From: a virus
Taxonomy: Duplodnaviria > Caudoviricetes
IMG/VR virus record: IMGVR_UViG_3300044625_001301
Span: 1 to 53,058 of that record
DNA length: 53,058 bases
Reading direction: 5' to 3' (one strand)
The notes beneath the pieces were generated by a model. That model made no database searches, was not told the origin of the DNA, and saw nothing but the letters and a program-made list of their open reading frames with translations. Each line of letters opens with the position of its first letter. Within the stretch, counting starts at the first letter, position 1. Both the position numbers and the translations under genes were made by a program. Of this stretch, positions 6,358 through 43,370 are shown in pieces.

Positions 6358-9300
6358 CTACTTCTTTTTGCGGGGAATCGAGGGAGGCGTCCAGGTGCCG
6401 CCTTTCTTGGAGGGGTCACCGGCGGGCTTGCGCTTGGCCCAATCCTGCGGCGGCTTGGCCACGCTGGTGGACGGCGGCTTGGGTTTGCCGTAGGCCTTGG
6501 CGACCGGGTCCTCGCCGTCGTACTTGGTCCAGTCGGCGAGGCGCTCAATCTCGGCCACCAGTTCCCGGTGGGTCTTGGCAGACGTCTTCTTGCGGCAGGA
6601 GCCGGACGCGCACGGCTCGGTGTTGGGCACCCGCTCGTAGCCCTCCCAGCAGGTGCAGCCGCCGTCGCCCTTGGCGATCTTGGCGTAGTGCGCGCTTTCA
6701 TCTTCTTCTCTGTCGAGATCGTGCGAGCATTTCACACCGTCAAGGTTGTATATCGAATCTTTTTCGGCGACCCGGTCAGCGTGCTCGACTGCCTCGTCGT
6801 GGCCCATCCCCTGACTTTTGGCTAGATCGAAAGCGTTCTCGTGTGCAGACTGCCAAGCCATGTCCCTGCATGCTTCGCAGTCTGCAGCATCACGAGCAGC
6901 CAGCTTCTTATTCGCCATGATCACATTGTCGCGCACCGGAATCTCGCGGGCGATGAACACCTCGGCGGAGTCCGACGCCAGGTGGTGGGTGTCGCCGATC
7001 GCGTAGACGTTCCAGATTTTCCCGCACGAGCAGGTCTTGTACGACGGCGCGGCGACCTTCTGGCCGCAGGAGCAGGAGAACGGCTTGGCCTCCTTGGCCA
7101 GGTAGCCGTTGAGGTGATCGTCCCAGCGCCATCCCGGCACCTTGCGGGTGAAGAAGCTGGCCTTCTTGGTCGGCTCCCACTCGCCCCAGGTGGCGTCACG
7201 CCGACCGGCACCGATCAGGCGTGGGTCCATCGGGTCCTGGGAGTCGTCGGGGTCCCAGCCGCCGGTGTAGGGGACGATCTCGGCGTCATAATTTTTGGGG
7301 TAGTAGACGGGTCCGTAATTGTCGTTGACGCTGATCTTGCCCTCGGAGTTACCTTCCGGGTACTTGCTGATGCCGAGAAATTTGTCCTGATCGCCCCGGA
7401 AGTTGGTGAGCATGTCACCCGGCTTGAAGAGGGTGCCGTCCTGATGCTGGACCATGTACTTCTCCCCGTTGCGGGGGTTGGTGAACACATGCTCGGGATC
7501 GTCGTCGTCGCGGGTGTGGTAGCCACCGTGCTCGTTGATGAACTTGGAGATCCGGCTGCCCAGTTTCTGCCGGTCACCCTTCTTGGTGACCGGGTTGACC
7601 GCCCTGGCGGGGTTGTTCTTCGGGTTCGGCGGCTCCTCGACGAAGGGGTGCTCGGGGACCCCGATCGCCTGGTGGACCTCCTCCTGGCCGCGCGGCCCGA
7701 CCTTGTGGGTCTGGAGGTACTTCTCGGCCATCGGGTCGCCGCCGGTGTTCAGACCCATCTCGGTCTGCTTGTCCATCCAGCGGCGGACCTTGGTGCCCAG
7801 ATCCAGTGCGGTGCGGCGGCTGTTCTTCTTCGGCTTGGGAAGTCCCTTAAACGTCGGCTGGGGCAGGTCGTTGATCGCCATGTTGTCGGTGATCTCGGGG
7901 GTCTGCCCGGCCTTGGGATGCTCGAAGGCGTCCATCGTCGGGGTGTTCTTCCAGGTCTCACCGGCGGTCCGACCGCCAACCGTGTACCGGCTCGGCTCAG
8001 GGTAGTGCTCCCGGACGTAGTCCTCGTGGTAGGCCTTGTCGGGGTAATCACCGTAGAGGTGGTCGCCCAGGCTGCCGTCGCCCCGGTGGGTGATCTGATA
8101 CGGGTCCTCTTCGTACTCGGCCAGTCCTTCAGCCAGGTCGCGGACACCGTGCTCGTCGCGTCCCCGGTCCCGGCCACTGGCCCAGGCGTCCCACTCCCGG
8201 TCCCTCGGGTCGGAGGCTGTCCGGAAGCCCGCTGCGCGGGCTTGATCAAAAGGGAGGCGGCCCCTAGAACCCTCGCGGTTGTACATCTTGCGGTAGTCGT
8301 ACATCTTGCGGTAGTCGGGGTCGTCTTCCCAATGATTCTGCTCGTCCTCGGCCTGGGCGTCGGCCAGGTCGTTGCGCTTGTGCTCGTCGCGGCCCCGGTC
8401 TCGGGACTGGCTGTAGGCCTTGTCCTGATAGCGGTCCTTGCCGGTGGCGGCCATCCGGGGTCCGACCACCGAGTCCATCCACACGTCGTGGTTGAACAGC
8501 GAGTTGTCGGCACCGAACATCTCGCCGATGTGGCGGGCCGCCGCCCGGACCTCGGGGGTCTGCAGTGCCTGCGGGGGCAGGATGCGGAACGCCTCGGCGA
8601 CGTGCTCGTACTGGCGTCGGCTCATCGCCTCCCGGAGCATCCGCTCGGAGACCCCGTAGGTGCGGGCGATCAGGTGGGCGGCGCTGGCCAGGACCGTGGT
8701 CTTCTTGGCCTTCCGGATCAGCCGGGCCAGCTGCTGCTGGGGGTTTCCCGCGCCGCCCGGTGCCTGGGAGGGGTCGACGTTGACGCTGCCCTCCGGCGGG
8801 GTGACGTCCATCGGATGCTCGGCCTGCTCGACCTGCTGGGCGAACTGGACAGCCTGAAGGGCCTGGCTCAAAGGTCCGATGATCTGCTGGTACTCCTGGG
8901 TCTCCCGGTCGATCATCTGGGTGATGGCCTGACCGGCGGTGTCCAGCAGCGCGTCCTCGGCGGGCTGGTTCTCCATCGGCATCGGGGGCTGCGGGGGTGC
9001 CACCGCCTGGCTGCCGGGAGGAGGCATCATCTGGCCCATCGCGGCGGGGTCACCGCCGCCCATCGCGGCAGCAGGGTCTTGGGCCGGGGCGGCCTGCTCG
9101 CCGCCACCGCCACCTTCGGATTCCTGCTCCTGCTCACCCTCGGCGGCCCAGAACGAGCGGGCGGCGGATTTGGCCTTGCCCTTGAACTCGTGGTCACACT
9201 TGGAGCACTTGAACTCCTTGGACTGGCCGTATGCCGGGTTGCCGGTTTGCTTAGTGCTCTTGGAGCCGCACCCAGAGCAGGCAGGGAAGTCATAAGCGGC

Positions 9301-10686
9301 GGCACGGCGGCGGGCTACACGCGGCGGCTCCTGCTCAGGGTCGCCGCCAGCCCCGCCGAAAAAATCGTCACCACCACCCTGCGGTGCTCCCTGCTCAGGC
9401 ATCGGCGGACCGGACATGCCGGGGTCGCCGCCCTGGCCCTGCTCGACCTCTTCGAGCAGCAGCTGCTCGATGGTGCCCTCGGGCAGACCGAGCAGCGAGT
9501 CGATGACCTCCGGCGGGACCGGGGCCGAGCCGCTGGCGTCGTCCTGGGGGATCTCCTGCATCATCTCCGGGGGCAGCGGAGGGGCTTCCTGCGGGACGGT
9601 GAAGGACTCCCCGCCCGATTCCGGAGCAGCATCGCCACCCACCTGGTCGCCCATACCGCCGCCGAAGTCGCCGCCTCCGGAACCGCTGTCGTCGCTGCCG
9701 CCCTTGTCGCTCTCAGAGTCTTCCGAGTCGTCGTCCTCAGAGTCGTCGTCAGAGTCCTCAGAGTCGTCGCTGCCGCCGAAATCGCCGCCCTTGTCCTTGG
9801 TGGGAGCATCATCGCTGTCACTTTCGGATTCCGACGACTCGGAGTCGTCGCTGTCGTCATCGTCGTCGCTGTCGTCGCAGTCCTCGGCGGCCCGGATGAT
9901 CATCGACTGCAGGAGCCGGTAGTCGGCGTCGTGGATGCCGGTGCTGGCGTAGCGATCCAGGGTGTCCAGGGAGGCCACCCGCATCCCGTTGGAGCGGGCG
10001 AAGTCGGTGTAGATGTCGGCGACCAGACGGGCGGCTTCCTTCTTGTCGTGGTCTTCGACCTGATAGCCGCCGTTCTCGTGGTCGGGGCGGTAGGTCTTGC
10101 CCTTCCAGGAGTGCTGGTCATCCAGTTCTCTGTCCCGACCCGTGTCGGGATCAGCCTCACCGGCCTGGCGGCGGCGGGCGTGCCGGTCGGAGCCGGAGTC
10201 CCCGCCGGGGGTGAAGTCGTTGCCGCTGACCTTCTCGGGGCCGTCCTGGTCGACCGAGTCTTTCCAGCCCTCGAAGTCACCCTTGGGGATCAGGTTGCCC
10301 GACGACGGGTGGTAGGTCTCGTCGAGGTCTTGGTTCTTGGGCGGGCCGTCGCCGGAGGGCATCGAGCCGAACCCGGCCTCGTCGTGGCTCAGAGCCACCT
10401 TGTAGGGGTGGGCGACCTTCCAGTCCTGCTTCATCGCGTTCTGGATGCGGCGCATGGTGCCGGTGTTGGGGAAGATGTACGGCTCGACGGCGGCCCGGAT
10501 GTCGTGCTTGCTGTAGTGCCAGCGGTCACCGAACTCGTCGATCCCGGTCGCGCCCAGCAGGAAGCGCCCGAACTGGGCGCGGACCACGTCGATCGCGGCC
10601 TCCATGTGGCGGGCTGCGGTCTTCGCCGCCAGTCGTGGCTCGTGCTGCGCGGCCTCATCAGATTCGAACAGACCAAAGTCGGACAT
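6358..10686 (-). CDS. Very large (1442 aa) acidic/low-complexity head-associated protein with several Zn-ribbon motifs
   Basis: Long ORF; D/S/E-rich tracts; CSGC..CSKC, CSC..CSC, CTC..C..C motifs; many [RK]xA linker motifs; preceded by late-promoter motif. Confidence 0.8.
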   Translation of the reverse strand: MSDFGLFESDEAAQHEPRLAAKTAARHMEAAIDVVRAQFGRFLLGATGIDEFGDRWHYSKHDIRAAVEPYIFPNTGTMRRIQNAMKQDWKVAHPYKVALSHDEAGFGSMPSGDGPPKNQDLDETYHPSSGNLIPKGDFEGWKDSVDQDGPEKVSGNDFTPGGDSGSDRHARRRQAGEADPDTGRDRELDDQHSWKGKTYRPDHENGGYQVEDHDKKEAARLVADIYTDFARSNGMRVASLDTLDRYASTGIHDADYRLLQSMIIRAAEDCDDSDDDDDSDDSESSESESDSDDAPTKDKGGDFGGSDDSEDSDDDSEDDDSEDSESDKGGSDDSGSGGGDFGGGMGDQVGGDAAPESGGESFTVPQEAPPLPPEMMQEIPQDDASGSAPVPPEVIDSLLGLPEGTIEQLLLEEVEQGQGGDPGMSGPPMPEQGAPQGGGDDFFGGAGGDPEQEPPRVARRRAAAYDFPACSGCGSKSTKQTGNPAYGQSKEFKCSKCDHEFKGKAKSAARSFWAAEGEQEQESEGGGGGEQAAPAQDPAAAMGGGDPAAMGQMMPPPGSQAVAPPQPPMPMENQPAEDALLDTAGQAITQMIDRETQEYQQIIGPLSQALQAVQFAQQVEQAEHPMDVTPPEGSVNVDPSQAPGGAGNPQQQLARLIRKAKKTTVLASAAHLIARTYGVSERMLREAMSRRQYEHVAEAFRILPPQALQTPEVRAAARHIGEMFGADNSLFNHDVWMDSVVGPRMAATGKDRYQDKAYSQSRDRGRDEHKRNDLADAQAEDEQNHWEDDPDYRKMYDYRKMYNREGSRGRLPFDQARAAGFRTASDPRDREWDAWASGRDRGRDEHGVRDLAEGLAEYEEDPYQITHRGDGSLGDHLYGDYPDKAYHEDYVREHYPEPSRYTVGGRTAGETWKNTPTMDAFEHPKAGQTPEITDNMAINDLPQPTFKGLPKPKKNSRRTALDLGTKVRRWMDKQTEMGLNTGGDPMAEKYLQTHKVGPRGQEEVHQAIGVPEHPFVEEPPNPKNNPARAVNPVTKKGDRQKLGSRISKFINEHGGYHTRDDDDPEHVFTNPRNGEKYMVQHQDGTLFKPGDMLTNFRGDQDKFLGISKYPEGNSEGKISVNDNYGPVYYPKNYDAEIVPYTGGWDPDDSQDPMDPRLIGAGRRDATWGEWEPTKKASFFTRKVPGWRWDDHLNGYLAKEAKPFSCSCGQKVAAPSYKTCSCGKIWNVYAIGDTHHLASDSAEVFIAREIPVRDNVIMANKKLAARDAADCEACRDMAWQSAHENAFDLAKSQGMGHDEAVEHADRVAEKDSIYNLDGVKCSHDLDREEDESAHYAKIAKGDGGCTCWEGYERVPNTEPCASGSCRKKTSAKTHRELVAEIERLADWTKYDGEDPVAKAYGKPKPPSTSVAKPPQDWAKRKPAGDPSKKGGTWTPPSIPRKKK
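8281..8316. repeat. Perfect 18-bp tandem duplication (DYRKMY x2)
   Basis: GTACATCTTGCGGTAGTC occurs twice in tandem, in frame. Confidence 0.9.
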
Positions 10687-10724
10687 GTCCCTGCCTACTC
10701 CCAGTTGACGGTGCGGTTGGTTAC

Positions 10725-10764
10725 CTACACCTTCGAGCGGGCGGCGCGGCGTTTTACAGGATCA
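10725..10764 (-). promoter_or_regulatory. Candidate phage late promoter CCTGTA-N17-CTCGAAGnnnTAG
   Basis: Minus strand TGATCCTGTA-aaacgccgcgccgcccg-CTCGAAG-gtg-TAG; matches 2744-2783. Confidence 0.6.
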
Positions 10765-10992
10765 GAAAACCCGGTGCAGGGTCGGCAGCAGGGTCAGGTA
10801 CTCCCCGGCGCTGAGGATCTCGGGCTGCCCGGTGCTGCGGTCGACGAGGACCGTCAGGTTGGCGTACTCGTCGAGGTCGGTGTCGCGGAAACCGATCACG
10901 TAGCCGGTCTCGCTCTCCAGCACCCCGGCGGGGTTCACCGGCTGCTCCAGAGTCTGTCGGGCGATCTGGATCGCCTCGTCGATGTCGATCAA
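10762..10992 (-). CDS. Putative immunity protein (Imm35/YrhB-like)
   Basis: 76 aa acidic protein, IDEAIQIARQ..E.ETGYVI..VLVDRSTG pattern; start overlaps the stop of the upstream toxin-tipped ORF. Confidence 0.6.
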   Translation of the reverse strand: MIDIDEAIQIARQTLEQPVNPAGVLESETGYVIGFRDTDLDEYANLTVLVDRSTGQPEILSAGEYLTLLPTLHRVF

Positions 10993-13900
10993 CGGTCCCC
11001 CTGTGGGTCGTGTGGGGCGAAGATCGGGGTCCCGTCGGCGGTCCCCCGGTCGACCAGGAACTTGGCGGTCTCGGGTGCCAGCGTTTTGTCGTCGGTGCGC
11101 AGGAACCGCAGCGGCGACTCGATCTTGTTGCGTTCCACGATTCTAGCAGCCGGGTCGGTGGTCAGGATGTTTTTCCGGCGGCTGCGGCCATCGAGCGCGG
11201 TGTAGTCGACCCGGTCCCGGTAGTGGTCCCCGCTGCTGCCGCGTATCTGGTGGTCGAGGTAGTGGACCTGGCCGCTGTCACCGACTCGGGCGTTGAAGAC
11301 GTGGCGGACGAACTCGTTGGCGTGGGGGTGGGGGTAGGAGGCCATGATCACGGCCCGACCTCCGGGACCCCAGCTGGCGATCTGGCGGGTCATGTGGTCC
11401 CAGTGGTGGGGGCCGTCGTCGCCCTCGGCGAAGTGGTCCTGGGGGTCGATCCAGGCCGCCGGGACACCGTTGGCATCGCGCCACCAGGCCGCCAGCTCGT
11501 GGTCCTTGGGGATGTAGTCGTTGGTGTGTCCGCCCTTGGGGGAGTGGTACCGCTGCTGGGCCTCGACGTTGAGGCCGTGGTAGTTGGCGTCGGCGGCCAG
11601 CGCGCAACGTTGGCAGTTGATCATGTAGGCCCGCTGGCTGGCCAAATCGGGGTCCCCGGTCCCGGCCTTGAAGCGGGGGTTGATCAGTTCGCCGCCGATG
11701 TGCCGGTCGGGGTCGGGGATGCGGGAGAAGTGCTCCAGGGAGGGGACCGCGAACTTGCGGCTGTGCTGAAGCTCGACCCTGAGCAGGTCCCGGTGGCGCA
11801 GCAGCCGGAGGTGGGAGTCGAGGTCGTTGGGGTTGGCCAGGACCCGCTCGGCGGCCTGGTGGTAGGCACCGGCCATCCGCTTGAGCGCGCCGTAGTGGGT
11901 CTCGGCGGCCCAGGCCGGGGTGAGGTCGATGTGGTGGGCGTTGTGGTGGCCGCGCAGCGACTGCGGACCCTCGGGGTGCGCGCCGTGCAGTGCGTAGTGG
12001 TCGCGGCGGGCCAGGACCTCCTGGGCGTGGGCGATCGCCTCGTCCGGCGCAGCGGCCAGCCGGGCGTTGCGCTGCTCGTAGCTCCGCTGCATCTGGGTGC
12101 GCTTGTCAAAGATACGGGTGAGCCGATCCAAGTCGGCAGACTGATCCATGCGGAAGGGGTGCGACCGGTTGTGCAGCAACAACGCCCCGGCGGCGACCTC
12201 CTTGGGGTCGTAGCCGTGCCGCTCCACCGCCCTCGGGCCGGTCTGATAACGCCTGCCCTTCTCCGGGTAGTCAAGCATGTCTCCGGCCTGCTCCTGGCCC
12301 ATGCTGAAGCCTTTATGCGCCGCCGGGTAGCGCTCCTTGAGGAACTTCTCGATGTTCTTCCAGCTTCGCTCCGGTGGGAACGAGGCCGTGGGGTGCAGGG
12401 CGTCTCGGTTCTGCCCGGCCCATTCGCGAAACTCTTTTGCGATCCTGCTGGTGACTTCTTCGGGATCGAACCCCGCCGTCCGAAGGAATACAGCAGCCTG
12501 GCGAGTGCGCTGCTCGTAGGTGCGCTGCATCTGGTACCGCTTCTGGGCGATGTCGGTGAGGCGCTCGACGTCGCGCTGCTCCATGTCGCCCCGGAGCGGG
12601 TTGGAGCGGTTGTGCAGCAGCAGCATTGAGGCGGCGACCTCGGCGGGGTCGTAGCCATGCTTGGAGACCGCCTCAGGTCCGGTCTCATAGGGGGTCAGGT
12701 CGGCGGTGCCGTGCTGCTGGTAGGGCATCGGCCCGAGACCGTCGAGGGGCCTGGCGGCCTCCTCCAGGCCCATCTCGTGACCCTTGTGGGCCGCCGGGTA
12801 GCGGTCCTTGAGGAACGCCTCGATGTTGGGCCAGTGGCTGACCGGACCCTCGTCCGGGTTGCCGTGGTCAAGCCAGCCCTTCACCTCCGGGGCACCGGCC
12901 TTGTAGCGGGCGGCGAAGGTGTCGGTCCACCAGTCGTGGAACTGCTTGTCCAGCTTGTTGACCAGATCCTGGTTGAGGGCGGCGGTCCGCTCCGCGCGCA
13001 GCCTGTCGTAGTAATCCTTCAGGTGCGCGCTGGCAGCGCCGTGCTCCTCGGGGGGCAGCTTGCGGACGATCCGGGCGCGGGGGGAGACCAGTCGGGGGAA
13101 GTCCTCATCGTTCTCGGTGGGTCGGAACTTGCCGTCATCCCGCAAAATGTTGTTCCAGATCCACGGCCCCTCGTCGAGCGGCTCCAGCTCGTAGACGTTC
13201 TTGTGGTATTTCGTCGCCGGTGCCGGGTGGTTGTACATCCAGACCCAGTCGGCGTGGTTGGGTGCCCCAATGGAGTTCTCGTAGTAGTCGATCCGGTTCT
13301 GGTCGCCTCGGGCGCGGACCGACTCCAGGATGTCTCCGGGCTGATGCTCGTGGTCGCTGCCGTGGTAGAAGCTGCCCTGTTCGGGGATGTCGTCGGTCTT
13401 CTTCTTCCGGTCCATGACCAGGTAGTCGTAGGCGTCCCGTGACGGCATCGCCAGGCGGGCCTGCCGGGGGTGCAGGCCGGTGATGTCGCCGAACACCGAA
13501 GCCGCCTCCGGCCCCAGGTGCTGGTGGTAGAGCGCGTGCAGCAGTTGCTGGAAGCGGGGGCCGTGGCCGTCCCGGTGGTCGGTGTTGGTCAAGACGTGGG
13601 CGGTCTCGTGCAGCAGGGTCAGCGTGTTGGTGTGCTGCCCGGCCAGCGCGATCTTGTTGCCGTCGGTGTAGGCCTGCCCGGACCCCGGCTCCCGCAGCCC
13701 CCAGTCGTTGGGTTCCACCCGGATGCCGCCGCCGTGGCCGTGGCTGCGCAGGATGTCGTTGACGAACCGCTCGGCCTCGGCGGAATGTTCACGCTGCAGC
13801 CGCCGCACGTCGGGCTGGCCGTACTGGTCGTAGTAGCCGTGCTGGTGGGCCTGGGCGACGTTGGCGTTGGGGACGTGGAACGTCTGGCCGCCGAACCCGG

Positions 13901-14387
13901 CCCGCTCCATCACCTGCTCGGCCACCGATACCCGGCCCTCGTCGTCAAGGGAGTGCCCGTCGGCGGCGGCCAGCCTGCGCAAGTCCTCGGTCACGTCGGC
14001 CTCGATCGCGGCGGTGTGGGAGCCATCCTCCAAAATGGCGTCCCAGGCCTGTGGGGGCCGGGTCGGCGACGGGGTGGCTTTGGCCCATGCCTTGCCCGCG
14101 TCCGTCTGGTATTCAGGCCGGTCGTGCATGGGACGGCCCGCCGCTTCCCACATCGCGGTGCCCACACCCTTGCGGCGGTGCTTTTCCTCCACCTCGATGT
14201 TGGCGACATACGGGGTGTCGTCGTCTAGCCGGTCGATCTCTATCCACCCGGCGTGCTCGCCGTTGATGGTGGCCTTCACCATGTCACCTTCGTTGGTGAT
14301 CTCCAGGCCGGGGATGTGCTTGGCGGCAGCAGTCTTGCCTGTGACGTCGTCGTCCAGGCCGTCCAACCCCCACAGCCCCCAACTCAT
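10989..14387 (-). CDS. Multi-domain polyvalent protein: GNAT, HExxH metallopeptidase, Arr-like ADP-ribosyltransferase fold, two internal repeats, C-terminal Tox-PL-like papain-fold domain
   Basis: VANIEVEEKHRRKGVGTAMW (GNAT motif A); LLHETAH...HGPRF (zincin); FYHGSD...VWMY...VYELEP; NCQRC...HVFNA...YLD (Cys-His-Asp). Confidence 0.8.
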   Translation of the reverse strand: MSWGLWGLDGLDDDVTGKTAAAKHIPGLEITNEGDMVKATINGEHAGWIEIDRLDDDTPYVANIEVEEKHRRKGVGTAMWEAAGRPMHDRPEYQTDAGKAWAKATPSPTRPPQAWDAILEDGSHTAAIEADVTEDLRRLAAADGHSLDDEGRVSVAEQVMERAGFGGQTFHVPNANVAQAHQHGYYDQYGQPDVRRLQREHSAEAERFVNDILRSHGHGGGIRVEPNDWGLREPGSGQAYTDGNKIALAGQHTNTLTLLHETAHVLTNTDHRDGHGPRFQQLLHALYHQHLGPEAASVFGDITGLHPRQARLAMPSRDAYDYLVMDRKKKTDDIPEQGSFYHGSDHEHQPGDILESVRARGDQNRIDYYENSIGAPNHADWVWMYNHPAPATKYHKNVYELEPLDEGPWIWNNILRDDGKFRPTENDEDFPRLVSPRARIVRKLPPEEHGAASAHLKDYYDRLRAERTAALNQDLVNKLDKQFHDWWTDTFAARYKAGAPEVKGWLDHGNPDEGPVSHWPNIEAFLKDRYPAAHKGHEMGLEEAARPLDGLGPMPYQQHGTADLTPYETGPEAVSKHGYDPAEVAASMLLLHNRSNPLRGDMEQRDVERLTDIAQKRYQMQRTYEQRTRQAAVFLRTAGFDPEEVTSRIAKEFREWAGQNRDALHPTASFPPERSWKNIEKFLKERYPAAHKGFSMGQEQAGDMLDYPEKGRRYQTGPRAVERHGYDPKEVAAGALLLHNRSHPFRMDQSADLDRLTRIFDKRTQMQRSYEQRNARLAAAPDEAIAHAQEVLARRDHYALHGAHPEGPQSLRGHHNAHHIDLTPAWAAETHYGALKRMAGAYHQAAERVLANPNDLDSHLRLLRHRDLLRVELQHSRKFAVPSLEHFSRIPDPDRHIGGELINPRFKAGTGDPDLASQRAYMINCQRCALAADANYHGLNVEAQQRYHSPKGGHTNDYIPKDHELAAWWRDANGVPAAWIDPQDHFAEGDDGPHHWDHMTRQIASWGPGGRAVIMASYPHPHANEFVRHVFNARVGDSGQVHYLDHQIRGSSGDHYRDRVDYTALDGRSRRKNILTTDPAARIVERNKIESPLRFLRTDDKTLAPETAKFLVDRGTADGTPIFAPHDPQGDR

Positions 14388-14563
14388 GTGTCAACCCACT
14401 CTTTGATCACGGCCTCAGCCCGGTCGCGGGTCATCAGCCAGCCGTCGGGGGATTGGACGGCGGCGATCCGGCCCGCGCGGGCCTCGCCCTGGGCGAACTC
14501 CAAAGTCTTGCGGGCGCGGTGGGCGACCTCCACCAGGGAGGCGTGGGTGCGGGGGTTGATCAC
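14384..14563 (-). CDS. Hypothetical protein (about 59 aa)
   Basis: GTG start overlaps upstream stop; own stop overlaps downstream start. Confidence 0.55.
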   Translation of the reverse strand: MINPRTHASLVEVAHRARKTLEFAQGEARAGRIAAVQSPDGWLMTRDRAEAVIKEWVDT

Positions 14564-14796
14564 GACAGCAGACCCTTGAGCTTGTCCGGGGAGAACCCAC
14601 CCCAGTGCTGCTCCCCGTCGCCGACCACCACCACCGGGGCCTGCTGGTAGCCCAGCCCGGTCACGTAGGCGTGGGCGTCGGGGTCGACCGTGACATCTAT
14701 GACACGGTGCTCGATGCCCAGCCGATCCAACTGCTTCTTGGTCATGGTGCACTGCGGGCAGTTGGGCTTGGTGTAGACGGTGACGGCGGCGGTCAT
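14560..14796 (-). CDS. nrdH: NrdH-like glutaredoxin (in-frame C-terminal module with possible own start)
   Basis: MTAAVTVYTKPNCPQCTMTKKQLD...GYQQAPVV...WGGFSPDKL; purine-rich AGAAAAAGG upstream of the ATG. Confidence 0.85.
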   Translation of the reverse strand: MTAAVTVYTKPNCPQCTMTKKQLDRLGIEHRVIDVTVDPDAHAYVTGLGYQQAPVVVVGDGEQHWGGFSPDKLKGLLS

Positions 14797-17643
14797 GATA
14801 TGGGCCTTTTTCTGGTTGATGTTTGAATTAACAATTTCTCCCCGAACATTCGGGCCGTGATAACCCCACTCATGCAAGTCATTGTTAGTCCAGACATGCT
14901 TGGCGGGAACTGTTGACCGCACTATCGGCCAATCCTCATCAGGATTTTCACTCTGCACGGCGTGTTCGCGTGCATACGGCAGGCTAGTGGTTATCCAGTC
15001 TCCAGTGTTTATGTCGGTTTTACCCGAAGGAATTGCTCGATAAATCACAACAGGATGATCGGGATTTCCCCTAGCCTCATTTAACTGACGCTGAATGTTT
15101 TTGATGCCGTAATCCATCGAGTCATACCATTCAGGGTGCTCATAAATGTCGTCCCCCCACATCTGGTTTAAGTCATGAAACGGAGCACCGTGGTCTGGGC
15201 CACCAGGACGATGCTGTCCTTGATAATCTTCACTGGGCATGGCCAGCCGGGCGGCGGTGTGGGGTTCCTTCCAGGGGTGCGAAAGCTCCTCGGCGATGTG
15301 GGCACCATCAGCAACCCAGCCATCGCTGCCGGTGCCGTTCCAGGGCAGCACATTGCTGCTCGGCTCAACCCGGTAGATGTAGCCGCGCCCGTTGTCGCCC
15401 TTCTTGGGAGTCAAACCGGCCCATCCCACCGCCTCGGTCACGCTCGGTGACAACCACACATAGTTGCGGCGATGCTCGGTGCCGTCCTTCTCATACAGGT
15501 TGTTGCCCCACGGCGAATCGTGGCCGGGAGTGAGGTGGGTGCCGACCGGCAGCTTGGTGGGTGAGTAGTGATACCACGGCCCGTCGTGTGGCTCGGGGCG
15601 CTCGTCTGGGTTGTACTCGTCCTCGTCATAGAAGCCGTCGTACACGTCAAACTCGCTAGGCATGGCCAGCCGGGGGGCGATGCGAGGCCCTTTCTTCCAT
15701 TCGGCGTCAAACTCGGTTGTCGGCTCGTCGTAAGAGAACCTTTTGCTGTACTGGTCCAACGGCTCGATGTGAGGAACTTTCGCACGGGGGTCAAACTGGC
15801 TCATCGTCCAATCCACGACGTGATCCCGCCCCTGATGGTTGATGACCGGGGCGTAGTGATCAGCAGGGGCGTAGACACCGTCATCGACAAGTTCGTCAGT
15901 CTCCCAGTGCCCCGGATCACTCTCGCTGTGCTGCAAGTCTTCTCGCGCCGGATTGGGGAACGCTGAAACTGTGGGAAGAAAGAATTGGTGCAGCCTTGGG
16001 TTAAATGAAGGGTGCAGCCCTTCCATAAAAGAAAGAGAGTTGCTCAAACAATCCCCATACCCCCGTTCCGGCTCTTCTGAATATCCGTTCTGAGCAAAGT
16101 CGGAAATGGCTTTGTTCAGATTGGGCATGGCCAGCCGGGAGGCGGTGTGGGAGGCGGTGTGATGGAACGCTGCTGCGGGGATGGGGTCAGGGGAGTAGAA
16201 CGACCGACCTTCCATCTCGTCGTTCCACTCGTTCTCGGGGTCAGGCAGGGCGAGGGCGTCATGGTTGAAGGGCAGCACGACGTGCCCGTCATTTTCTTCG
16301 TCCCAGTTCATGGAGCCGTACTCCTGCTGATCCCGCTCGTCCAGTTCGTTGGCGTACTGGTCGGCATGGCCGGGATGATCCCAAAAATAATTACCTGGGG
16401 TGGCCCCGTCATGGTGCCACATCGCTTCGCCTTTGGTGTAGTCCAGGCCATGCTGTCGGATGGAGTCCACATTGCGGCGTGGCGTGACGTGGTAGTAAAT
16501 GGGCATGGCCAGCCGGGAGGAAGTGATGTAATCGCCCTGCGCCCAGGACGGCTGCCGGTCATAAGTGCTGGCGATGCTGGCAGGATTGTCTGCCAGGTGC
16601 TGCTGGATCGCCGGATGCAGTGGAGTGCCACCCCACCGCTCCAAGTTGCGGGTGCTCTCCCGCAGGAAACGCACCGGCAGGTGGGTCAACCCCGCCTCGC
16701 GGGCAGCGGCCAGTCGGTGGTTACCGTCGGCCACCAAACCCAGTTCGCCGTCGGTTTCCAGGGTGATCGGCATTTGCACGCCGTGCTCGCGGATGTGGCG
16801 CACCAGGTCGGGGTAATGGTCGGAGTCCGTGGCGGCCACCGGGTCGTACAGGTTGTGTGGTTCTAGGTGTTCGATGGGGAATTGCAGCGGGGCGGGCATG
16901 GCCAGCCGGGCAGCGGTGTGGGGGCCGCGCTCCACCTCGTAATCCTCCAAGGTGTCGATGTCGGGGTCCTGGCGGTTCCACACCGGCGGGTTCCAGCCCA
17001 CCGACCGGCCCCAGGCCCGGCCCAGCGGGGTCTGGTCGGTGGAGTGCCCCAGGTCGGGGTCGACGTTGTTGCGGTGCCAGTCCAGCATCGCGGTGCCGAT
17101 GCCCTGGCGGCGGTACTCGGGGGCCACCTTGATCATGTCGATCTTGCCCTGCGCCGGGCGCAGGTAGCCGATCAGGTGCTCGCCGTCGTAGGCGTGCGTC
17201 CAACCCCGGTGCTCGCGGAAGTGCAGGTTCTCCGGCAGGTCGCCGTTGGCCCCTCCCAGCCGGGCGGCGGTGCGGGGGCCGATCCGGTGCCGTTCGATGT
17301 GCTGATGCGCCGCTGCGACCTCATCGGGGTCAGGTTCGTCGTACCAGTCCAGTTCTTGACCTAGCTCCGGCTCCATGTCGCCATGCACGCCGTAGTAGGG
17401 CAGCGGGTGCGCCCCGGCGGAATCATAGGCGTGGGTGTCGTCGTGGGCAAAGAAGTGGGCCGCCGGGAGGTGCGCCGTGCTCAGCGTCCCGATTCCGAGA
17501 TGGGGAAATCTTTCCTTGAGTGCTTGGGCGTATTCCAGGCAGCTGCCGCCCTGCCAGCGATCCCACTCGTCGGTGTTGTGTCCGGCCTCCGAAAGATCAT
17601 TTAGGCTGCCCATCCGCCAGCCGTAGCCCCACAGGTCGCTCAT
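14560..17643 (-). CDS. Eight-module polyprotein: papain-like, GNAT, ParB-like, ART-like, papain/transglutaminase-like, Arr-like ART, ART-like, NrdH glutaredoxin
   Basis: Modules separated by (H/R)TAARLAMP-type linkers. Motifs: GSCLEYA..H..D; VAPEYRRQGIG; DGNHRLAAA; YHVT..IRQHGL; CLSNS..H..DWTMSQF; WYHYS..VWLS..IYRVEP; IYRA..GDWITTS..EWGY; CPQC. Confidence 0.85.
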   Translation of the reverse strand: MSDLWGYGWRMGSLNDLSEAGHNTDEWDRWQGGSCLEYAQALKERFPHLGIGTLSTAHLPAAHFFAHDDTHAYDSAGAHPLPYYGVHGDMEPELGQELDWYDEPDPDEVAAAHQHIERHRIGPRTAARLGGANGDLPENLHFREHRGWTHAYDGEHLIGYLRPAQGKIDMIKVAPEYRRQGIGTAMLDWHRNNVDPDLGHSTDQTPLGRAWGRSVGWNPPVWNRQDPDIDTLEDYEVERGPHTAARLAMPAPLQFPIEHLEPHNLYDPVAATDSDHYPDLVRHIREHGVQMPITLETDGELGLVADGNHRLAAAREAGLTHLPVRFLRESTRNLERWGGTPLHPAIQQHLADNPASIASTYDRQPSWAQGDYITSSRLAMPIYYHVTPRRNVDSIRQHGLDYTKGEAMWHHDGATPGNYFWDHPGHADQYANELDERDQQEYGSMNWDEENDGHVVLPFNHDALALPDPENEWNDEMEGRSFYSPDPIPAAAFHHTASHTASRLAMPNLNKAISDFAQNGYSEEPERGYGDCLSNSLSFMEGLHPSFNPRLHQFFLPTVSAFPNPAREDLQHSESDPGHWETDELVDDGVYAPADHYAPVINHQGRDHVVDWTMSQFDPRAKVPHIEPLDQYSKRFSYDEPTTEFDAEWKKGPRIAPRLAMPSEFDVYDGFYDEDEYNPDERPEPHDGPWYHYSPTKLPVGTHLTPGHDSPWGNNLYEKDGTEHRRNYVWLSPSVTEAVGWAGLTPKKGDNGRGYIYRVEPSSNVLPWNGTGSDGWVADGAHIAEELSHPWKEPHTAARLAMPSEDYQGQHRPGGPDHGAPFHDLNQMWGDDIYEHPEWYDSMDYGIKNIQRQLNEARGNPDHPVVIYRAIPSGKTDINTGDWITTSLPYAREHAVQSENPDEDWPIVRSTVPAKHVWTNNDLHEWGYHGPNVRGEIVNSNINQKKAHIMTAAVTVYTKPNCPQCTMTKKQLDRLGIEHRVIDVTVDPDAHAYVTGLGYQQAPVVVVGDGEQHWGGFSPDKLKGLLS
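15236..16909 (-). repeat. Five identical 15-nt linker repeats CCGGCTGGCCATGCC (encoding RLAMP)
   Basis: Plus-strand GGCATGGCCAGCCGG at 15236, 15659, 16124, 16502, 16895; degenerate copies near 17257 and 13443. Confidence 0.95.
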
Positions 17644-17858
17644 GACCGCCCCCCGAACCCGAACCCCCGTTTCCGATCCTCCCACTCCCCGTAGTGATCG
17701 GCGGGATCGAGCGGGGCGGTGTCGCGCTCAAAGTCGTGGGAGTAGCCGCCGCCGATGACGGGGGCCTCCTCCTCCTCGGTGTCGTCCTCGGCGCAGTCGC
17801 ACTCACCCAGGTGCAGACTCCACACCTCGGTGCCCAGGATCACCAGCCGGATTCTCAC
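17640..17858 (-). CDS. Hypothetical protein (72 aa, acidic)
   Basis: GTG start overlapping upstream TGA; ends RGFGFGGRS. Confidence 0.6.
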   Translation of the reverse strand: MRIRLVILGTEVWSLHLGECDCAEDDTEEEEAPVIGGGYSHDFERDTAPLDPADHYGEWEDRKRGFGFGGRS

Positions 17859-18286
17859 AGCCCGTCGTCCCGCAGTTCGTCGGCGACCTCGATGAGCATC
17901 CGCACGCTGGCGATCTCGATGCACAGCCCCAGGCCGCCGCCCAGCGCCACCAGCGCCAGACTCGACGACGAGGCGTTGGCGTAGGTGTACCAGGCCAGCG
18001 CGAGGATGATCATCGGCAGACCGAGCAGGTGGAACCGGTAGGAGCACCGTTTCGGGCATTTCGGGAAGAACCAGCGGGTGCCGGTCATCGCCCCGATCAG
18101 GCTGATCCCGGCACCGACCGCCAGGATGACCTCCAGGATCAACTCCAGCCCGTTGTTGACGCCGCCCAGGATCGGCCCGGCCTGCATCAGGAACAGCGCG
18201 GTCAGCAGCAGACCGACCCAGATTTCCGGGGCGTAGCCGTGGTGGTCGATGCGGTGTCCCTGCTCGGGGCGGGTCAGTGCGCTCAT
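17855..18286 (-). CDS. Membrane protein (about 4 TM)
   Basis: MSALTRPE... with four hydrophobic segments. Confidence 0.7.
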   Translation of the reverse strand: MSALTRPEQGHRIDHHGYAPEIWVGLLLTALFLMQAGPILGGVNNGLELILEVILAVGAGISLIGAMTGTRWFFPKCPKRCSYRFHLLGLPMIILALAWYTYANASSSSLALVALGGGLGLCIEIASVRMLIEVADELRDDGL

Positions 18287-18287
18287 C

Positions 18288-18512
18288 TCAGTCGTCCTCG
18301 TCCTCGGCGTCCTTCTCGGCGGCGTCCTTCTTGGCGCTGCTGTTGCGCTTGGCTTCGGTGGCGAACCAGACGCCAAAAGCGGCGACCAGAACCTGATCGA
18401 GGATCGGCGGAGGGCTGGAGTCGAAGATCTGGAACCCCGTCCACAGCCCGGTCAGGGCGAGGATGCCGATGGTGGTGGAGCGGACGTTCGCCAGCGGATT
18501 GCGTGGTGCCAC
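18288..18512 (-). CDS. Small membrane protein (2 TM, acidic tail)
   Basis: Two hydrophobic helices; RBS GAAAGGG. Confidence 0.7.
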   Translation of the reverse strand: MAPRNPLANVRSTTIGILALTGLWTGFQIFDSSPPPILDQVLVAAFGVWFATEAKRNSSAKKDAAEKDAEDEDD

Positions 18513-18572
18513 CGGACTGCCCTTTCCTCATCTCCTCCACAACCTTTCCGCGTCACGCGGACATTTTCCCCG

Positions 18573-43267: not shown

Positions 43268-43326
43268 CACCACCACCTCCAGTGATTCAAGGCCGAATCC
43301 GGGCCGCTGGCAGGCCCGGAAACGAG

Positions 43327-43356
43327 AAAACCCCCGCCGGGATGGCGGGGGTCTCT
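43327..43356 (-). terminator. Intrinsic terminator
   Basis: ACCCCCGCC..GGCGGGGGT stem followed by TTT on the minus strand. Confidence 0.75.
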
Positions 43357-43370
43357 CGGTCGGCTGAGGG

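What the first reader, a model, noticed from the sequence alone, without database searches (positions are those of the whole stretch)
10762..11720. Polymorphic-toxin-like pair on a phage: Tox-PL papain-fold tip plus Imm35/YrhB-like immunity gene
Seen: the 1132-aa protein ends in NCQRC...HVFNA...YLD and is followed, with a 4-nt overlap, by a 76-aa acidic ORF containing VLVDRSTG. Known: an NCxxC/H/D triad marks the Tox-PL papain-like toxin family, which is often followed by Imm35 in bacterial polymorphic toxin loci. Inference: a phage toxin-immunity system carried on a non-MuF polyprotein in the head-gene region.
Basis: partly seen in the sequence, partly recalled or inferred. Interest (0 to 1): 0.85.

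Follow-up and report, generated by a model that had tools for sequence, protein, structure and literature searches.

The report
Phage polyprotein peptidase with its inhibitor
A large phage related to the Bxz1 group of mycobacteriophages encodes a giant multi-enzyme protein that ends in a papain-type cysteine peptidase and is followed by a tiny matching inhibitor gene, and the peptidase probably cuts this and a neighbouring giant protein into separate enzymes.

Summary
A 1132-aa ORF (10989-14387, minus strand) overlaps by 4 nt a 76-aa acidic ORF (10762-10992).

- **Peptidase:** the large protein's C-terminus passes Pfam Gln_amidase (Tox-PL1) at 35.7 bits against a cut-off of 24.1. It keeps the NC-H-DxQ signature in 6 of 6 family members, and its model has a papain fold.
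- **Small ORF:** it misses the Pfam Imm35 model, but its family profile matches an Imm35/YrhB profile (hhalign 95.1%, E 3.3e-8; 0 of 100 shuffles above 8.7%). Its model has a PepSY-like fold.
- **Logic:** this is not the polymorphic-toxin arrangement. The peptidase end is the constant part and the N-terminal enzyme modules (GNAT, HExxH, ART-like) vary.
- **Junctions:** modules in this protein and in the adjacent 1041-aa protein are joined by a recurring R-L-A-M-P motif. It occurs 6 times in the window, all in these two ORFs, against 0.0015 expected.

Best reading (about 0.45): a peptidase that releases the modules of virion-delivered polyvalent proteins, held in check by its co-translated inhibitor. 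The main rival (about 0.3) is an injected effector with an immunity protein. The co-fold never ran. I class it as a new variant of a known kind, of moderate interest.

The parts
10989..14387 (-). 1132-aa polyvalent polyprotein. Order of parts: N-terminal leader MSWGLWG, GNAT, HExxH metallopeptidase-like module, ART/Arr-like module, two helical repeat modules, conserved C-terminal core with Tox-PL1.
   Evidence: ORF; Pfam; NCBIfam; module BLAST; homologue in L002.
14130..14294 (-). GNAT acetyltransferase module (residues 32-86).
   Evidence: Pfam Acetyltransf_1 at 26.3 bits, cut-off 20.7.
13491..13631 (-). HExxH (SprT-like / Rv0185-like) metallopeptidase-like module, residues 253-299. The match is weak.
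   Evidence: Pfam SprT-like at 18 bits, below its cut-off of 25.6; TIGR04338 at 23.5 bits, far below 90. The HETAH string is in the translation. No such hit in the L002 homologue.
13443..13457 (-). R-L-A-M-P junction (residues 311-315). Homology to the L002 protein begins exactly here.
12993..13442 (-). Strongly conserved module (residues 316-465), possibly ART/Arr-like. The family is not established.
   Evidence: Near-identical to L002 over residues 311-460. No Pfam hit and no PDB sequence hit. The Arr-like reading rests on a weak Arr-ms hit (E 0.0015) to a different module of L002 and on a pattern I recalled.
12054..12992 (-). Two copies of a helical module (residues about 466-632 and 635-778). 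Homologous to separate genes gp108/gp109 of Gordonia phage Pupper.
11244..11621 (-). Tox-PL1 / Pfam Gln_amidase papain-fold domain (residues 923-1048). Catalytic Cys925 at 11613-11615, His1029 at 11301-11303, Asp1045 at 11253-11255.
   Evidence: Pfam at 35.7 bits, cut-off 24.1; 41.8 bits in the six-frame search; N, C, H, D and Q invariant in 6 of 6 sequences; papain-fold matches.
10992..11243 (-). Conserved C-terminal tail (residues 1049-1132), including the SPLRFLRTDDK...VDRGTA stretch. Function unknown.
   Evidence: Conserved in L002 and P0011-P0014. Residues 1093-1114 are modelled at high confidence and the last 17 at low confidence.
10762..10992 (-). 76-aa acidic Imm35-like protein with a PepSY-like fold; the presumed cognate inhibitor. 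Its TTG start overlaps the TGA stop of the polyprotein.
14560..17685 (-). Second polyvalent polyprotein, 1041 aa from the GTG. The real start is probably the ATG at 17643, which gives MSDLWGYGW. Contains GNAT, a weak ParB_N-like module, further shuffled modules and an NrdH-like glutaredoxin at the C-terminus. No peptidase domain was found.
16894..16908 (-). R-L-A-M-P junction 1 of the 1041-aa protein, preceded by HTAA.
16501..16515 (-). R-L-A-M-P junction 2.
16123..16137 (-). R-L-A-M-P junction 3, preceded by HTASHTAS.
15658..15672 (-). R-L-A-M-P junction 4.
15235..15249 (-). R-L-A-M-P junction 5, preceded by HTAA.

Best explanation
The 1132-aa protein and the 1041-aa protein just upstream are polyvalent effector polyproteins of a phage of about 150 kb related to the Cluster C (Bxz1-like) mycobacteriophages. 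They are made with the head genes and, by inference, are packaged and delivered with the DNA.

Their enzyme modules (GNAT, HExxH, ART-like, ParB_N-like, glutaredoxin, helical modules) are joined by a conserved peptide junction, (H-T-A-[AS])-R-[LT]-A-M-[PA]. The Tox-PL1 papain-fold domain at the end of the 1132-aa protein is the only peptidase present in every family member. I infer that it is the releasing peptidase that cuts these junctions, in its own chain and in trans in the 1041-aa protein.

The 76-aa Imm35-like protein is translationally coupled to the end of the peptidase gene. I infer that it is the cognate inhibitor, which keeps the peptidase silent in the producing cell so that intact polyproteins can be assembled, and that the block is lifted after packaging or delivery.

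Shown here: the two family assignments, the fold, the catalytic signature, the conserved gene pairing, the constancy of the peptidase end, and the junction motif with its statistics. Inferred: cleavage at the junctions, the identity of the protease, inhibition by the small protein, and packaging and injection.
For: **Peptidase domain**
- Pfam Gln_amidase at 35.7 bits against a cut-off of 24.1.
- N924, C925, H1029, D1045 and Q1047 are invariant in 6 of 6 aligned sequences, one of which is 99% identical to the window. This matches the NC-H-DxQ signature described by Zhang et al. 2012 (PMC3482391, passages).
- AF2 model with pLDDT 72.8. The rows shown by VIA-align are dominated by papain-fold (transglutaminase-like) cysteine peptidases and deamidases. 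Best are SpvD (Z 9.5, rmsd 3.1 over 146 residues), staphopain C (7.6) and OspI (7.1).

**Inhibitor**
- Family profile A1 against an Imm35/YrhB profile of 14 sequences: hhalign probability 95.1%, E 3.3e-8, 61 columns starting at residue 1.
- Controls: 0 of 100 column shuffles of A1 exceed 8.7%, and 0 of 100 shuffles of the Imm35 alignment exceed 2.5%.
- AF2 model with pLDDT 87.7. Its best structural matches are PepSY-domain proteins, with peptidase propeptides and cystatins further down the list.
- Zhang et al. 2012 state that Imm35 is associated specifically with Tox-PL1 and probably acts as a peptidase inhibitor. They also state that some Tox-PL1 domains are releasing peptidases.

**Pairing**
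- The same peptidase end, 4-nt overlap and small ORF are present in L002, where the small proteins are 33% identical. That is 2 of 2 loci in which both genes can be seen.
- There is one Tox-PL1 copy per record in G000 and in G062.
- The small ORF is absent from 50,697 phage records. No Cluster C record is among the 21 records that match the large protein. Phage Cali has tRNA genes and gp78 in place of the 1041-aa, 1132-aa and 76-aa genes.

**Processing**
- RLAMP occurs 6 times in the six-frame translation of the 53-kb window, and all 6 lie in the two adjacent ORFs.
- From composition, 0.0015 occurrences are expected. In 20,000 shuffles, 31 have one occurrence and none has more.
- The motif recurs in L002 and L006 with different codons, so it is the peptide that is conserved.
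- Homology between the window protein and L002 starts exactly at a junction.
- Modules are shuffled between the two polyprotein genes in different phages.
- In the 97%-complete relative G062, the junction DNA pattern occurs 4 times, 3 of them in this locus. The reversed-pattern control gives 2.
- In Gordonia phage Pupper the helical module is encoded by stand-alone genes. None of the 5 genes examined carries a junction motif, and no Tox-PL1 match was found.
- Leu or Thr two residues before the Ala-Met pair would suit the hydrophobic S2 preference of papain-type enzymes. This point is recalled general knowledge, not a test.

**Polyvalent-protein frame**
- Large multi-enzyme phage proteins with GNAT, ART and metallopeptidase domains, encoded beside portal and terminase genes, are described by Iyer et al. 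2017 (PMC5512222, passages) and by PMC9503650 (passages).
Against: - No cleavage, binding or toxicity data exist, and the co-fold job never entered the queue.
- The Pfam Imm35 model does not hit the small ORF or any of its 7 relatives at E<=10. The conserved Trp of Imm35 is Tyr or Phe in this family.
- An extreme C-terminal Tox-PL1 is the position that Zhang et al. 2012 read as a toxin.
- The nearest solved structures, SpvD and OspI, are injected effectors, not processing enzymes.
- The neighbouring 1442-aa protein and its Cali homologue gp83 share the N-terminal leader. It is followed by R-L-A-A in the window and R-I-A-A in Cali, although Cali has no Tox-PL1. If those are cleavage sites, another enzyme such as the prohead protease must cut them.
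- The window's protein also has a weak HExxH module that could do the processing.
- The five junctions in the 1041-aa ORF share identical codons. This is also what recent duplication or recombination joints would give.
- Only two loci show both genes. The contexts of the other six small proteins and of P0012-P0014 could not be fetched.
Confidence: 0.45

Rival explanations
1. This is a classical effector-immunity pair. The Tox-PL1 domain is itself an injected effector, either a protease or a glutamine deamidase acting on a host or competitor protein. The 76-aa Imm35-like protein protects the producing cell until the protein is packaged. The junctions are cut by something else or are only linkers.
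For: - The domain sits at the extreme C-terminus, and an Imm35-like gene follows directly. That is the arrangement Zhang et al. 2012 read as toxin plus immunity.
- The structural neighbours include the effectors SpvD, OspI, AvrPphB and a CdiA-CT toxin.
- Cluster A mycobacteriophages carry a stand-alone Gln_amidase protein (52.7 bits) that depositors annotate as a toxin, followed by a gene they annotate as an immunity protein.
- Other modules of the same polyprotein are plausible host-modifying enzymes.
Against: - The domain is the constant part of the family while the other modules vary. Toxin tips of polymorphic systems behave the opposite way.
- This reading leaves the highly non-random junction motif without an enzyme.
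- The two roles do not exclude each other.
Confidence: 0.3
2. The junctions are cut by another protease, either the phage's prohead protease (as T4 gp21 trims Alt and the internal proteins; recalled) or the HExxH module. On this reading Tox-PL1 and its inhibitor form an independent module pair with no role in processing.
For: - The shared N-terminal leader, followed by R-[LI]-A-A, also occurs in the 1442-aa protein and in Cali gp83. Cali lacks Tox-PL1.
- Iyer et al. 2017 propose metallopeptidase modules as the processing enzymes of polyvalent proteins.
- The window's protein has a weak HExxH module.
Against: - No HExxH hit was found in the L002 homologue, and none is on record among the precomputed Pfam families of P0011-P0014. 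All of these proteins have junctions.
- In the 97%-complete relative, the junction pattern is confined to this locus apart from one hit at control level.
- No junction motif occurs in the 24.6-kb Cali locus around the portal gene.
- The capsid and protease genes of this phage are outside the window, so the prohead protease could not be examined.
Confidence: 0.17
3. The small ORF is not a partner of the peptidase. It would be a small PepSY-like protein with another role, such as assembly or anti-defence, or a chance ORF.
For: - There is no Pfam hit.
- The structural Z-scores, 7.7 at best, lie in the range the tool calls common.
- The nearest named cluster in the ESM Atlas, Imm35 at 0.78, is in the noise range.
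Against: - The position, the overlap and the length are all conserved at 33% identity.
- There is a family of 8 with 9 invariant columns.
- The AF2 model is confident.
- The profile match to the one immunity family reported as specific to Tox-PL1 reaches 95.1% with clean controls.
Confidence: 0.05

Closest known systems
Tox-PL1 / Imm35 pairs of bacterial polymorphic toxin systems (Zhang et al. 2012, PMC3482391; passages read)
   Same: Same peptidase family: Pfam Gln_amidase, the NC-H-DxQ signature and a papain fold. The gene directly downstream is an Imm35 relative. The paper calls Imm35 specific to Tox-PL1 and a likely peptidase inhibitor, and it allows a releasing-peptidase role for some Tox-PL1 domains.
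   Different: There is no secretion or trafficking domain (WXG, RHS, SpvB). The carrier is a phage polyvalent protein. The Tox-PL1 end is constant and the N-terminal modules vary. The small ORF is too divergent for the Pfam Imm35 model and lacks the conserved Trp.
MuF-Tox-PL1 fusions in prophage-like neighbourhoods (Zhang et al. 2012) and MuF polymorphic toxins (Jamet et al. 2017, PMC5576092)
   Same: An enzymatic C-terminal domain on a head-associated phage protein encoded beside portal and terminase genes. Zhang et al. suggest that Tox-PL1 there may process proteins during assembly or release.
   Different: No MuF domain is present. In the Jamet paper the terms Tox-PL1, papain and Imm35 each occur 0 times. 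Here several enzymes are chained by a repeated junction motif.
Polyvalent proteins of phages and conjugative elements (Iyer et al. 2017, PMC5512222; passages read)
   Same: Giant multi-enzyme proteins with GNAT, ART and metallopeptidase modules, encoded with the late or structural genes. They are proposed to be packaged, injected and released by autoproteolysis.
   Different: In that paper's main text the word 'papain' occurs 0 times. A Tox-PL1 peptidase, a dedicated inhibitor gene and a repeated R-L-A-M-P junction did not appear in the passages I saw. I did not read the paper's figures or supplements.
Cluster A mycobacteriophage gene pair, for example Equemioh13 gp03 and gp04 (NC_028852.1)
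   Same: gp03 carries Gln_amidase at 52.7 bits. It is 26-30% identical to residues about 900-1122 of the window's protein. The small gene that follows it is annotated as an immunity protein.
   Different: gp03 is a stand-alone protein of 333 aa at the left end of a 53-kb genome. gp04 (104 aa) shows no BLAST similarity to the 76-aa ORF and only weak profile similarity to the Imm35 profile (5.7%) and to A1 (1.5%).
PepSY domains and peptidase propeptide inhibitors; cystatins
   Same: The fold is a helix followed by a four-stranded sheet, with a D-x-x-T-G turn. VIA-align matches: 4exr_A (Z 7.7, rmsd 1.7 over 56 residues), the YpeB C-terminal domain (7.1), YpmB (6.8), the vibriolysin chain 3nqz_A (5.2) and tarocystatin in complex with papain (4.3). 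hhalign against 18 PepSY domains gives 79.4%, E 1.5e-5.
   Different: There is no Pfam PepSY hit. The Z-scores are in the range the tool calls common. The family lies closer to Imm35 (95.1%) than to PepSY, and the Imm35 profile itself matches PepSY at only 11.5%.

Membership tests
Tox-PL1 / Pfam PF15644 Gln_amidase | Match to the family HMM above its curated cut-off | tested here: met
   35.7 bits against 24.1 for residues 923-1048, covering profile positions 1-112 of 114. The six-frame search gives 41.8 bits.
Tox-PL1 / Pfam PF15644 Gln_amidase | Conserved NC-H-DxQ catalytic signature (Zhang et al. 2012) | tested here: met
   N924-C925, H1029 and D1045-x-Q1047 are invariant in 6 of 6 aligned family members.
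Tox-PL1 / Pfam PF15644 Gln_amidase | Papain-like fold, with the Cys on a helix and the His and Asp on the following strands | tested here: met
   AF2 model at pLDDT 72.8. Cys36 lies in helix 26-47, His140 in strand 137-146, and Asp156 just after strand 152-155. Best VIA-align match is SpvD at Z 9.5, and the rows shown are dominated by papain-fold (transglutaminase-like) enzymes. Foldseek E-values are weak, 0.04 at best.
Tox-PL1 / Pfam PF15644 Gln_amidase | Peptidase or deamidase activity | not testable with these tools
   This needs biochemistry.
Imm35 (PF15567, YrhB-like) | Match to the Pfam Imm35 HMM | tested here: not met
   No hit at E<=10 for any of the 8 family members, nor in the six-frame window. 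As a positive control, E. coli YrhB scores 81.8 bits.
Imm35 (PF15567, YrhB-like) | Profile-profile homology to Imm35 members | tested here: met
   hhalign of A1 against 14 YrhB relatives: 95.1%, E 3.3e-8, 61 columns starting at residue 1. Shuffle controls reach at most 8.7% and 2.5%. Against YrhB alone the probability is 19%.
Imm35 (PF15567, YrhB-like) | Conserved W and [ST] residues (table in Zhang et al. 2012) | tested here: not met
   In the hhalign alignment the invariant G-W of Imm35 aligns with G-Y or G-F in the small-ORF family. No Trp is conserved in A1.
Imm35 (PF15567, YrhB-like) | Encoded next to a Tox-PL1 protein | tested here: met
   Directly downstream with a 4-nt overlap, both in the window and in L002.
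Imm35 (PF15567, YrhB-like) | Binds and neutralises the peptidase | not tested
   The complex-prediction job was never accepted because the queue was full. Binding and inhibition need an experiment.
PepSY (PF03413) | HMM match, profile similarity and fold | tested here: inconclusive
   No Pfam hit. hhalign against 18 PepSY domains: 79.4%, E 1.5e-5; shuffled target reaches at most 7.4%. The three top VIA-align matches are PepSY-type chains at Z 6.8-7.7.
Polymorphic toxin system | Constant N-terminal trafficking part with a variable C-terminal toxin tip | tested here: not met
   In the 6 family members (window, L002, P0011-P0014) the C-terminal core from about residue 788 to the end is shared. 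The N-terminal modules differ.
Polyvalent protein (Iyer et al. 2017) | Very large phage protein that combines several unrelated enzymatic domains and is encoded with the virion or packaging genes | tested here: met
   The 1132-aa protein has GNAT, an HExxH-like module and Tox-PL1. The neighbouring 1041-aa protein has GNAT, a ParB_N-like module and a glutaredoxin. The portal gene lies two genes downstream.
Polyvalent protein (Iyer et al. 2017) | Packaged in the virion and injected with the DNA | not testable with these tools
   Inferred only, from gene position and from the shared N-terminal leader.
MuF-fused phage toxins | N-terminal MuF domain | tested here: not met
   No MuF family appears among the Pfam hits at E<=1 for the 1132-aa protein.

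The most novel reading that the evidence does not exclude
A phage carries a dedicated protease-inhibitor timer for its injected arsenal. One Tox-PL1 peptidase, kept silent by a co-translated Imm35-like inhibitor that is left behind at packaging, is delivered with two polyproteins. It then cuts them at R-[LT]-A-M-[PA] junctions, in cis and in trans, into about ten separate host-modifying enzymes. The junction would act as a standard connector that lets phages swap effector modules freely. The small-ORF family would also be the sequence link showing that Imm35 immunity proteins are PepSY-type peptidase inhibitors.
Probability: 0.35. Interest if true: 0.75.

Novelty: new variant of a known kind. 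Interest (0 to 1): 0.55.

Why it matters
Polyvalent phage proteins are thought to be injected as single giant chains and then released as separate enzymes, but no releasing enzyme or cut site has been pinned down for them.

This locus offers three things that can each be tested directly:
- a candidate enzyme, the one domain that is constant across the family;
- a candidate cut site, a five-residue motif repeated at module borders;
- a candidate off-switch, the small inhibitor gene.

If the reading is right, the junction motif would allow effector modules of uncultured actinophages to be delimited and catalogued by eye. It would also extend the Tox-PL1/Imm35 pair from bacterial warfare to control of phage effector delivery. 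If the rival reading is right, the locus is simply one more phage-borne effector-immunity pair of known families.

Tried and rejected
**Co-fold of the C-terminal core with the small protein (complex prediction).** I handed it in, unchanged. Each time the queue was full or no usable answer came back. The job never ran, so there is no result.

**Searches for relatives that found nothing useful**
- Megablast of 10500-14500 against phages: no match.
- tblastn of the 76-aa ORF against phages: no match.
- Word-index search with the 76-aa ORF: only the ORF itself.
- Word-index search with the C-terminal 243 aa among proteins of 133-426 aa: nothing.
- The search for related loci with P0002: two partial matches covering residues 5-33 only, which I did not follow.
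- The search for related loci with P0003 and with P0014: nothing.
- Genome-contig search with the C-terminal alignment: nothing.
- Metagenome contigs: one relative, L006, but its contig ends before the C-terminus.
- Linking small and large proteins by shared contig length: no lengths coincide.

**Structure and sequence searches with the small ORF**
- Foldseek against the PDB gave nothing at E<=0.001 for either model.
- The PDB sequence search with A1 gave a best E of 0.59.
- The ESM Atlas gave only unnamed clusters at 0.87-0.88. The nearest named cluster was Imm35 at 0.78, which is in the noise range.
- BFVD gave small unnamed phage proteins (best TM 0.75, E 0.005-0.02) and one protein named 'Immunity protein' at E 0.066. 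These are leads only.

**ART/Arr-like module (residues 301-470).** There is no PDB sequence hit at E<=10 and no Pfam hit.

**RNA genes.** No tRNA gene was found in the window, and no Rfam family in 10000-19000.

**Rows dropped.** P0007 and P0009, long low-complexity proteins, were left out of alignment A1.

**Literature and earlier findings**
- 'PF15644' returned 1 paper.
- 'Imm35' returned 5 papers, of which one was relevant.
- 'Tox-PL1' returned 1 paper.
- 'Polyvalent proteins' with 'bacteriophages' and 'papain-like' returned 4 papers.
- 'Mycobacteriophage' with 'polymorphic toxin' and 'immunity protein' returned 10 papers, seen as a listing only.
- 'Bxz1' with 'virion proteins' and 'mass spectrometry' returned 1 paper, not relevant.
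- None of the listings or passages I saw describes this arrangement. I did not search for the junction motif itself.
- The search of earlier findings returned nothing for this genome.

Full report
**1. What is there**

The window is one IMG/VR virus record, estimated 34% complete. Nearly all of its genes lie on the minus strand.

One search lists a 1132-aa ORF at 10989-14387 (-) and a 76-aa ORF at 10762-10992 (-). The small ORF's TTG start overlaps the TGA stop of the large one (TTGA), and GGGGGA lies just upstream. The small protein is acidic, with pI 4.08 and 13 D+E against 4 K+R.

**2. Genomic setting**

PHROGs names the following on the minus strand:
- terminase large subunit, 37820-40012;
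- LysA-type and LysB-type endolysins, 42083-43651 and 40773-41789;
- portal protein, 3216-5960.

The portal protein is about 75% identical to those of Cluster C (Bxz1-like, about 155 kb) mycobacteriophages. Of the 227 matching records, 209 are Mycobacterium phages.

The gene order towards the portal is:
1. a 1041-aa ORF (14560-17685);
2. the 1132-aa ORF;
3. the 76-aa ORF;
4. a 1442-aa ORF (phrog_2922);
5. a 130-aa ORF (DUF7245);
6. the portal gene.

In phage Cali the homologues gp83, gp84 and portal follow four tRNA genes and gp78. Nothing there corresponds to the 1041-aa, 1132-aa and 76-aa genes. The window has no tRNA gene.

**3. The C-terminal domain**

- Pfam Gln_amidase ('Papain fold toxin 1', the Tox-PL1 of Zhang et al. 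2012) matches residues 923-1048 at 35.7 bits, above its cut-off of 24.1.
- Five large proteins share this end: P0011 (98% identical in this part), P0012, P0013, P0014 and the 1003-aa protein of L002.
- In their alignment N924, C925, H1029, D1045 and Q1047 are invariant in 6 of 6 sequences. This is the NC-H-DxQ signature of the family (PMC3482391, passages).
- The AF2 model (pLDDT 72.8) places the Cys on a helix and the His and Asp on the following strands.
- Foldseek E-values are weak, 0.04 at best, but the hits are papain-fold enzymes.
- With VIA-align the best match is SpvD (Z 9.5, rmsd 3.1 over 146 residues). Staphopain C (7.6), OspI (7.1), C39 peptidase domains and AvrPphB follow.

The papain fold is therefore supported by sequence, signature and model.

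**4. The small ORF**

Sequence searches:
- Pfam, PHROGs and NCBIfam give nothing.
- The Imm35 model gives no match in the window at E<=10.
- An exhaustive HMMER search of 1.84 billion representatives found 8 hits at E<=0.001. Six are proteins of 71-75 aa. The other two are long low-complexity proteins, which I dropped.
- With the L002 protein these form alignment A1: 8 sequences, 9 invariant columns, including the D-x-x-T-G turn.

Structure:
- The AF2 model (pLDDT 87.7) is a helix, four strands and a helix.
- VIA-align ranks PepSY-type chains first: 4exr_A (Z 7.7), the YpeB C-terminal domain (7.1) and YpmB (6.8). The vibriolysin chain 3nqz_A (5.2), a fungal metalloproteinase chain (4.9) and tarocystatin bound to papain (4.3) come lower.
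- These Z-scores are in the range the tool calls common, so on their own they show only a fold type.

Direct test of the Imm35 claim:
- I took E. coli YrhB, which scores 81.8 bits on Imm35.
- I collected 29 relatives from genome contigs and aligned 14 complete ones.
- hhalign of A1 against that alignment gives 95.1% probability, E 3.3e-8, over 61 collinear columns starting at residue 1.
- Controls: 0 of 100 column shuffles of A1 exceed 8.7%, and 0 of 100 shuffles of the Imm35 alignment exceed 2.5%.
- Against YrhB alone the probability is only 19%.

Comparison with PepSY:
- Against 18 PepSY domains A1 scores 79.4%, E 1.5e-5.
- The Imm35 profile scores 11.5% against the same PepSY domains.
- So the family is a remote Imm35 relative that also leans towards PepSY.
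- The conserved Trp of Imm35 is Tyr or Phe here.

**5. Pairing**

- L002 comes from a 150,100-bp record that is 97% complete. It has the same order: large protein, 4-nt overlap, 75-aa ORF, then the homologue of the 1442-aa protein. The small proteins are 33% identical and the large ones 43%.
- Each record has one Gln_amidase match.
- None of 50,697 phage records matches the small ORF.
- Of those records, 21 match part of the large protein. Four Gordonia phage records match the helical module, and 17 Cluster A Mycobacterium phage records match the peptidase domain.
- In Equemioh13 that peptidase domain is a stand-alone 333-aa protein (Gln_amidase at 52.7 bits). It is followed by a 104-aa gene annotated as an immunity protein, which is not detectably related to the 76-aa ORF.
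- I could not fetch the contexts of the other six small proteins. The pairing therefore rests on 2 of 2 loci.

**6. Not a polymorphic toxin**

- Module BLAST and the sequences themselves show that the shared part of the family is the C-terminal core, from about residue 788 to the end, plus one or two helical modules.
- The N-terminal parts differ: GNATs, an HExxH module, ART-like modules and others.
- Modules of the neighbouring 1041-aa protein recur inside the large proteins of other phages.
- The 1041-aa protein carries GNAT, a weak ParB_N-like module and an NrdH-like glutaredoxin.
- This is the pattern of the polyvalent proteins of Iyer et al. 2017 (PMC5512222, passages; see also PMC7824862, and PMC9503650). 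In the 2017 main text the word 'papain' does not occur.

**7. The junction motif**

- Module borders carry (H-T-A-[AS])-R-[LT]-A-M-[PA].
- Exact RLAMP occurs 6 times in all six frames of the window: five times in the 1041-aa ORF and once in the 1132-aa ORF.
- Composition predicts 0.0015 occurrences. In 20,000 shuffles, 31 have one occurrence and none has two.
- The motif recurs in L002 and L006, including the variants RTAMP and RLAMA, with different codons. The five copies in the 1041-aa ORF share identical codons.
- Homology between the window's protein and that of L002 begins exactly at a junction.
- In the near-complete relative, the junction DNA pattern occurs 4 times, 3 of them in this locus, against 2 for the reversed control.
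- No junction was found in the Cali locus, nor in the five Pupper genes examined, where the helical module is encoded by separate genes.

**8. Mechanism**

The simplest reading has three steps:
1. The junctions are cleavage sites.
2. The one peptidase domain present in every family member cuts them.
3. The translationally coupled Imm35-like protein keeps that peptidase off until the polyproteins are assembled or delivered.

Zhang et al. 2012 foresaw both a toxin role and a releasing role for Tox-PL1, and a peptidase-inhibitor role for Imm35.

Points against this reading:
- The domain sits at the extreme C-terminus, and its nearest solved relatives are effectors.
- The HExxH module in the window's protein could do the cutting.
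- The 1442-aa protein and Cali gp83 share the N-terminal leader (MSDFGLFE), followed by R-L-A-A in the window and R-I-A-A in Cali, although Cali lacks Tox-PL1. That would fit a different protease.

I put the releasing-peptidase reading at 0.45, the effector-immunity reading at 0.30, another protease at 0.17 and an unrelated small ORF at 0.05. That the pair is a cognate peptidase and inhibitor, whichever role the peptidase has, I put at about 0.8.

**9. Novelty**

- The two families and their association are in print. So are phage-borne Tox-PL1 fused to MuF and polyvalent proteins.
- Cluster A phage records already annotate a related pair.
- What the listings and passages I saw do not contain is this combination: a constant Tox-PL1 end, an Imm35-like gene, and a repeated junction shared by two adjacent polyproteins, in a Bxz1-related phage.
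- I did not see figures or supplements, and I did not search for the motif itself.
- I rate it a new variant of a known kind, with interest 0.55.

Noticed in passing
window 14560-17685 (-): A second giant ORF directly upstream of the finding. My GC3 filter at 0.80 missed it. It carries GNAT, a weak ParB_N-like module and five R-L-A-M-P junctions. The likely true start is the ATG at 17643.
   Followed up: partly
window 14569-14784 (-): An NrdH-like glutaredoxin (TIGR02194 at 84.6 bits, cut-off 85.75) is fused in frame to the C-terminus of the 1041-aa polyprotein. No R-L-A-M-P junction precedes it.
   Followed up: no
window 14364-14387, 17620-17643 and 10663-10686 (-); L002 5458 and 8775; L038 6900: All three giant proteins upstream of the portal gene start with a similar short leader: MSWGLWG, MSDLWGYGW and MSDFGLFE. 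So do their homologues in L002, P0012 and P0018, and so does Cali gp83. This could be a shared packaging or targeting signal. In the 1442-aa protein and in gp83 the leader is followed by R-[LI]-A-A.
   Followed up: partly
window 15235-16908 (-): The five junctions of the 1041-aa ORF share the same 16 bases (C CGG CTG GCC ATG CC). Junctions in the 1132-aa ORF, L002 and L006 use other codons. This could reflect recent duplication or recombination joints as well as selection on the peptide.
   Followed up: partly
L002 4833-5465 (+): In the 150-kb relative, an ART-like module is a separate 210-aa gene that keeps an R-T-A-M-P motif 16 residues after its start. It looks like a short leader followed by a junction.
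   Followed up: no
window 6358-10686 (-): A 1442-aa protein (phrog_2922, E 7.6e-224; homologue of Cali gp83) with long acidic Asp/Ser/Glu-rich runs and several Cys-x-x-Cys pairs. It has no Pfam family, and its function is unknown.
   Followed up: no
alignments A1, A4 and the PepSY set: The small-ORF family matches both Imm35 (95.1%) and PepSY (79.4%), while Imm35 against PepSY gives only 11.5%. The family may be a sequence bridge indicating that Imm35 has a PepSY-type fold.
   Followed up: partly
window 47758-49808 (-): Two adjacent glycosyltransferase genes (phrog_854 and phrog_1579) lie upstream of the lysis cassette.
   Followed up: no
window 1-2718 (-): A large ORF after the portal gene, cut off by the window end. 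It matches phrog_2940 at E 2.4e-170, and its last 40 residues give a weak endolysin/LysM-like match.
   Followed up: no
BFVD hits of model ma608a991bc31: Several unnamed phage proteins of 90-105 aa resemble the small-ORF model (TM up to 0.75, E 0.005-0.02). One metagenomic myovirus protein named 'Immunity protein' appears at E 0.066.
   Followed up: no
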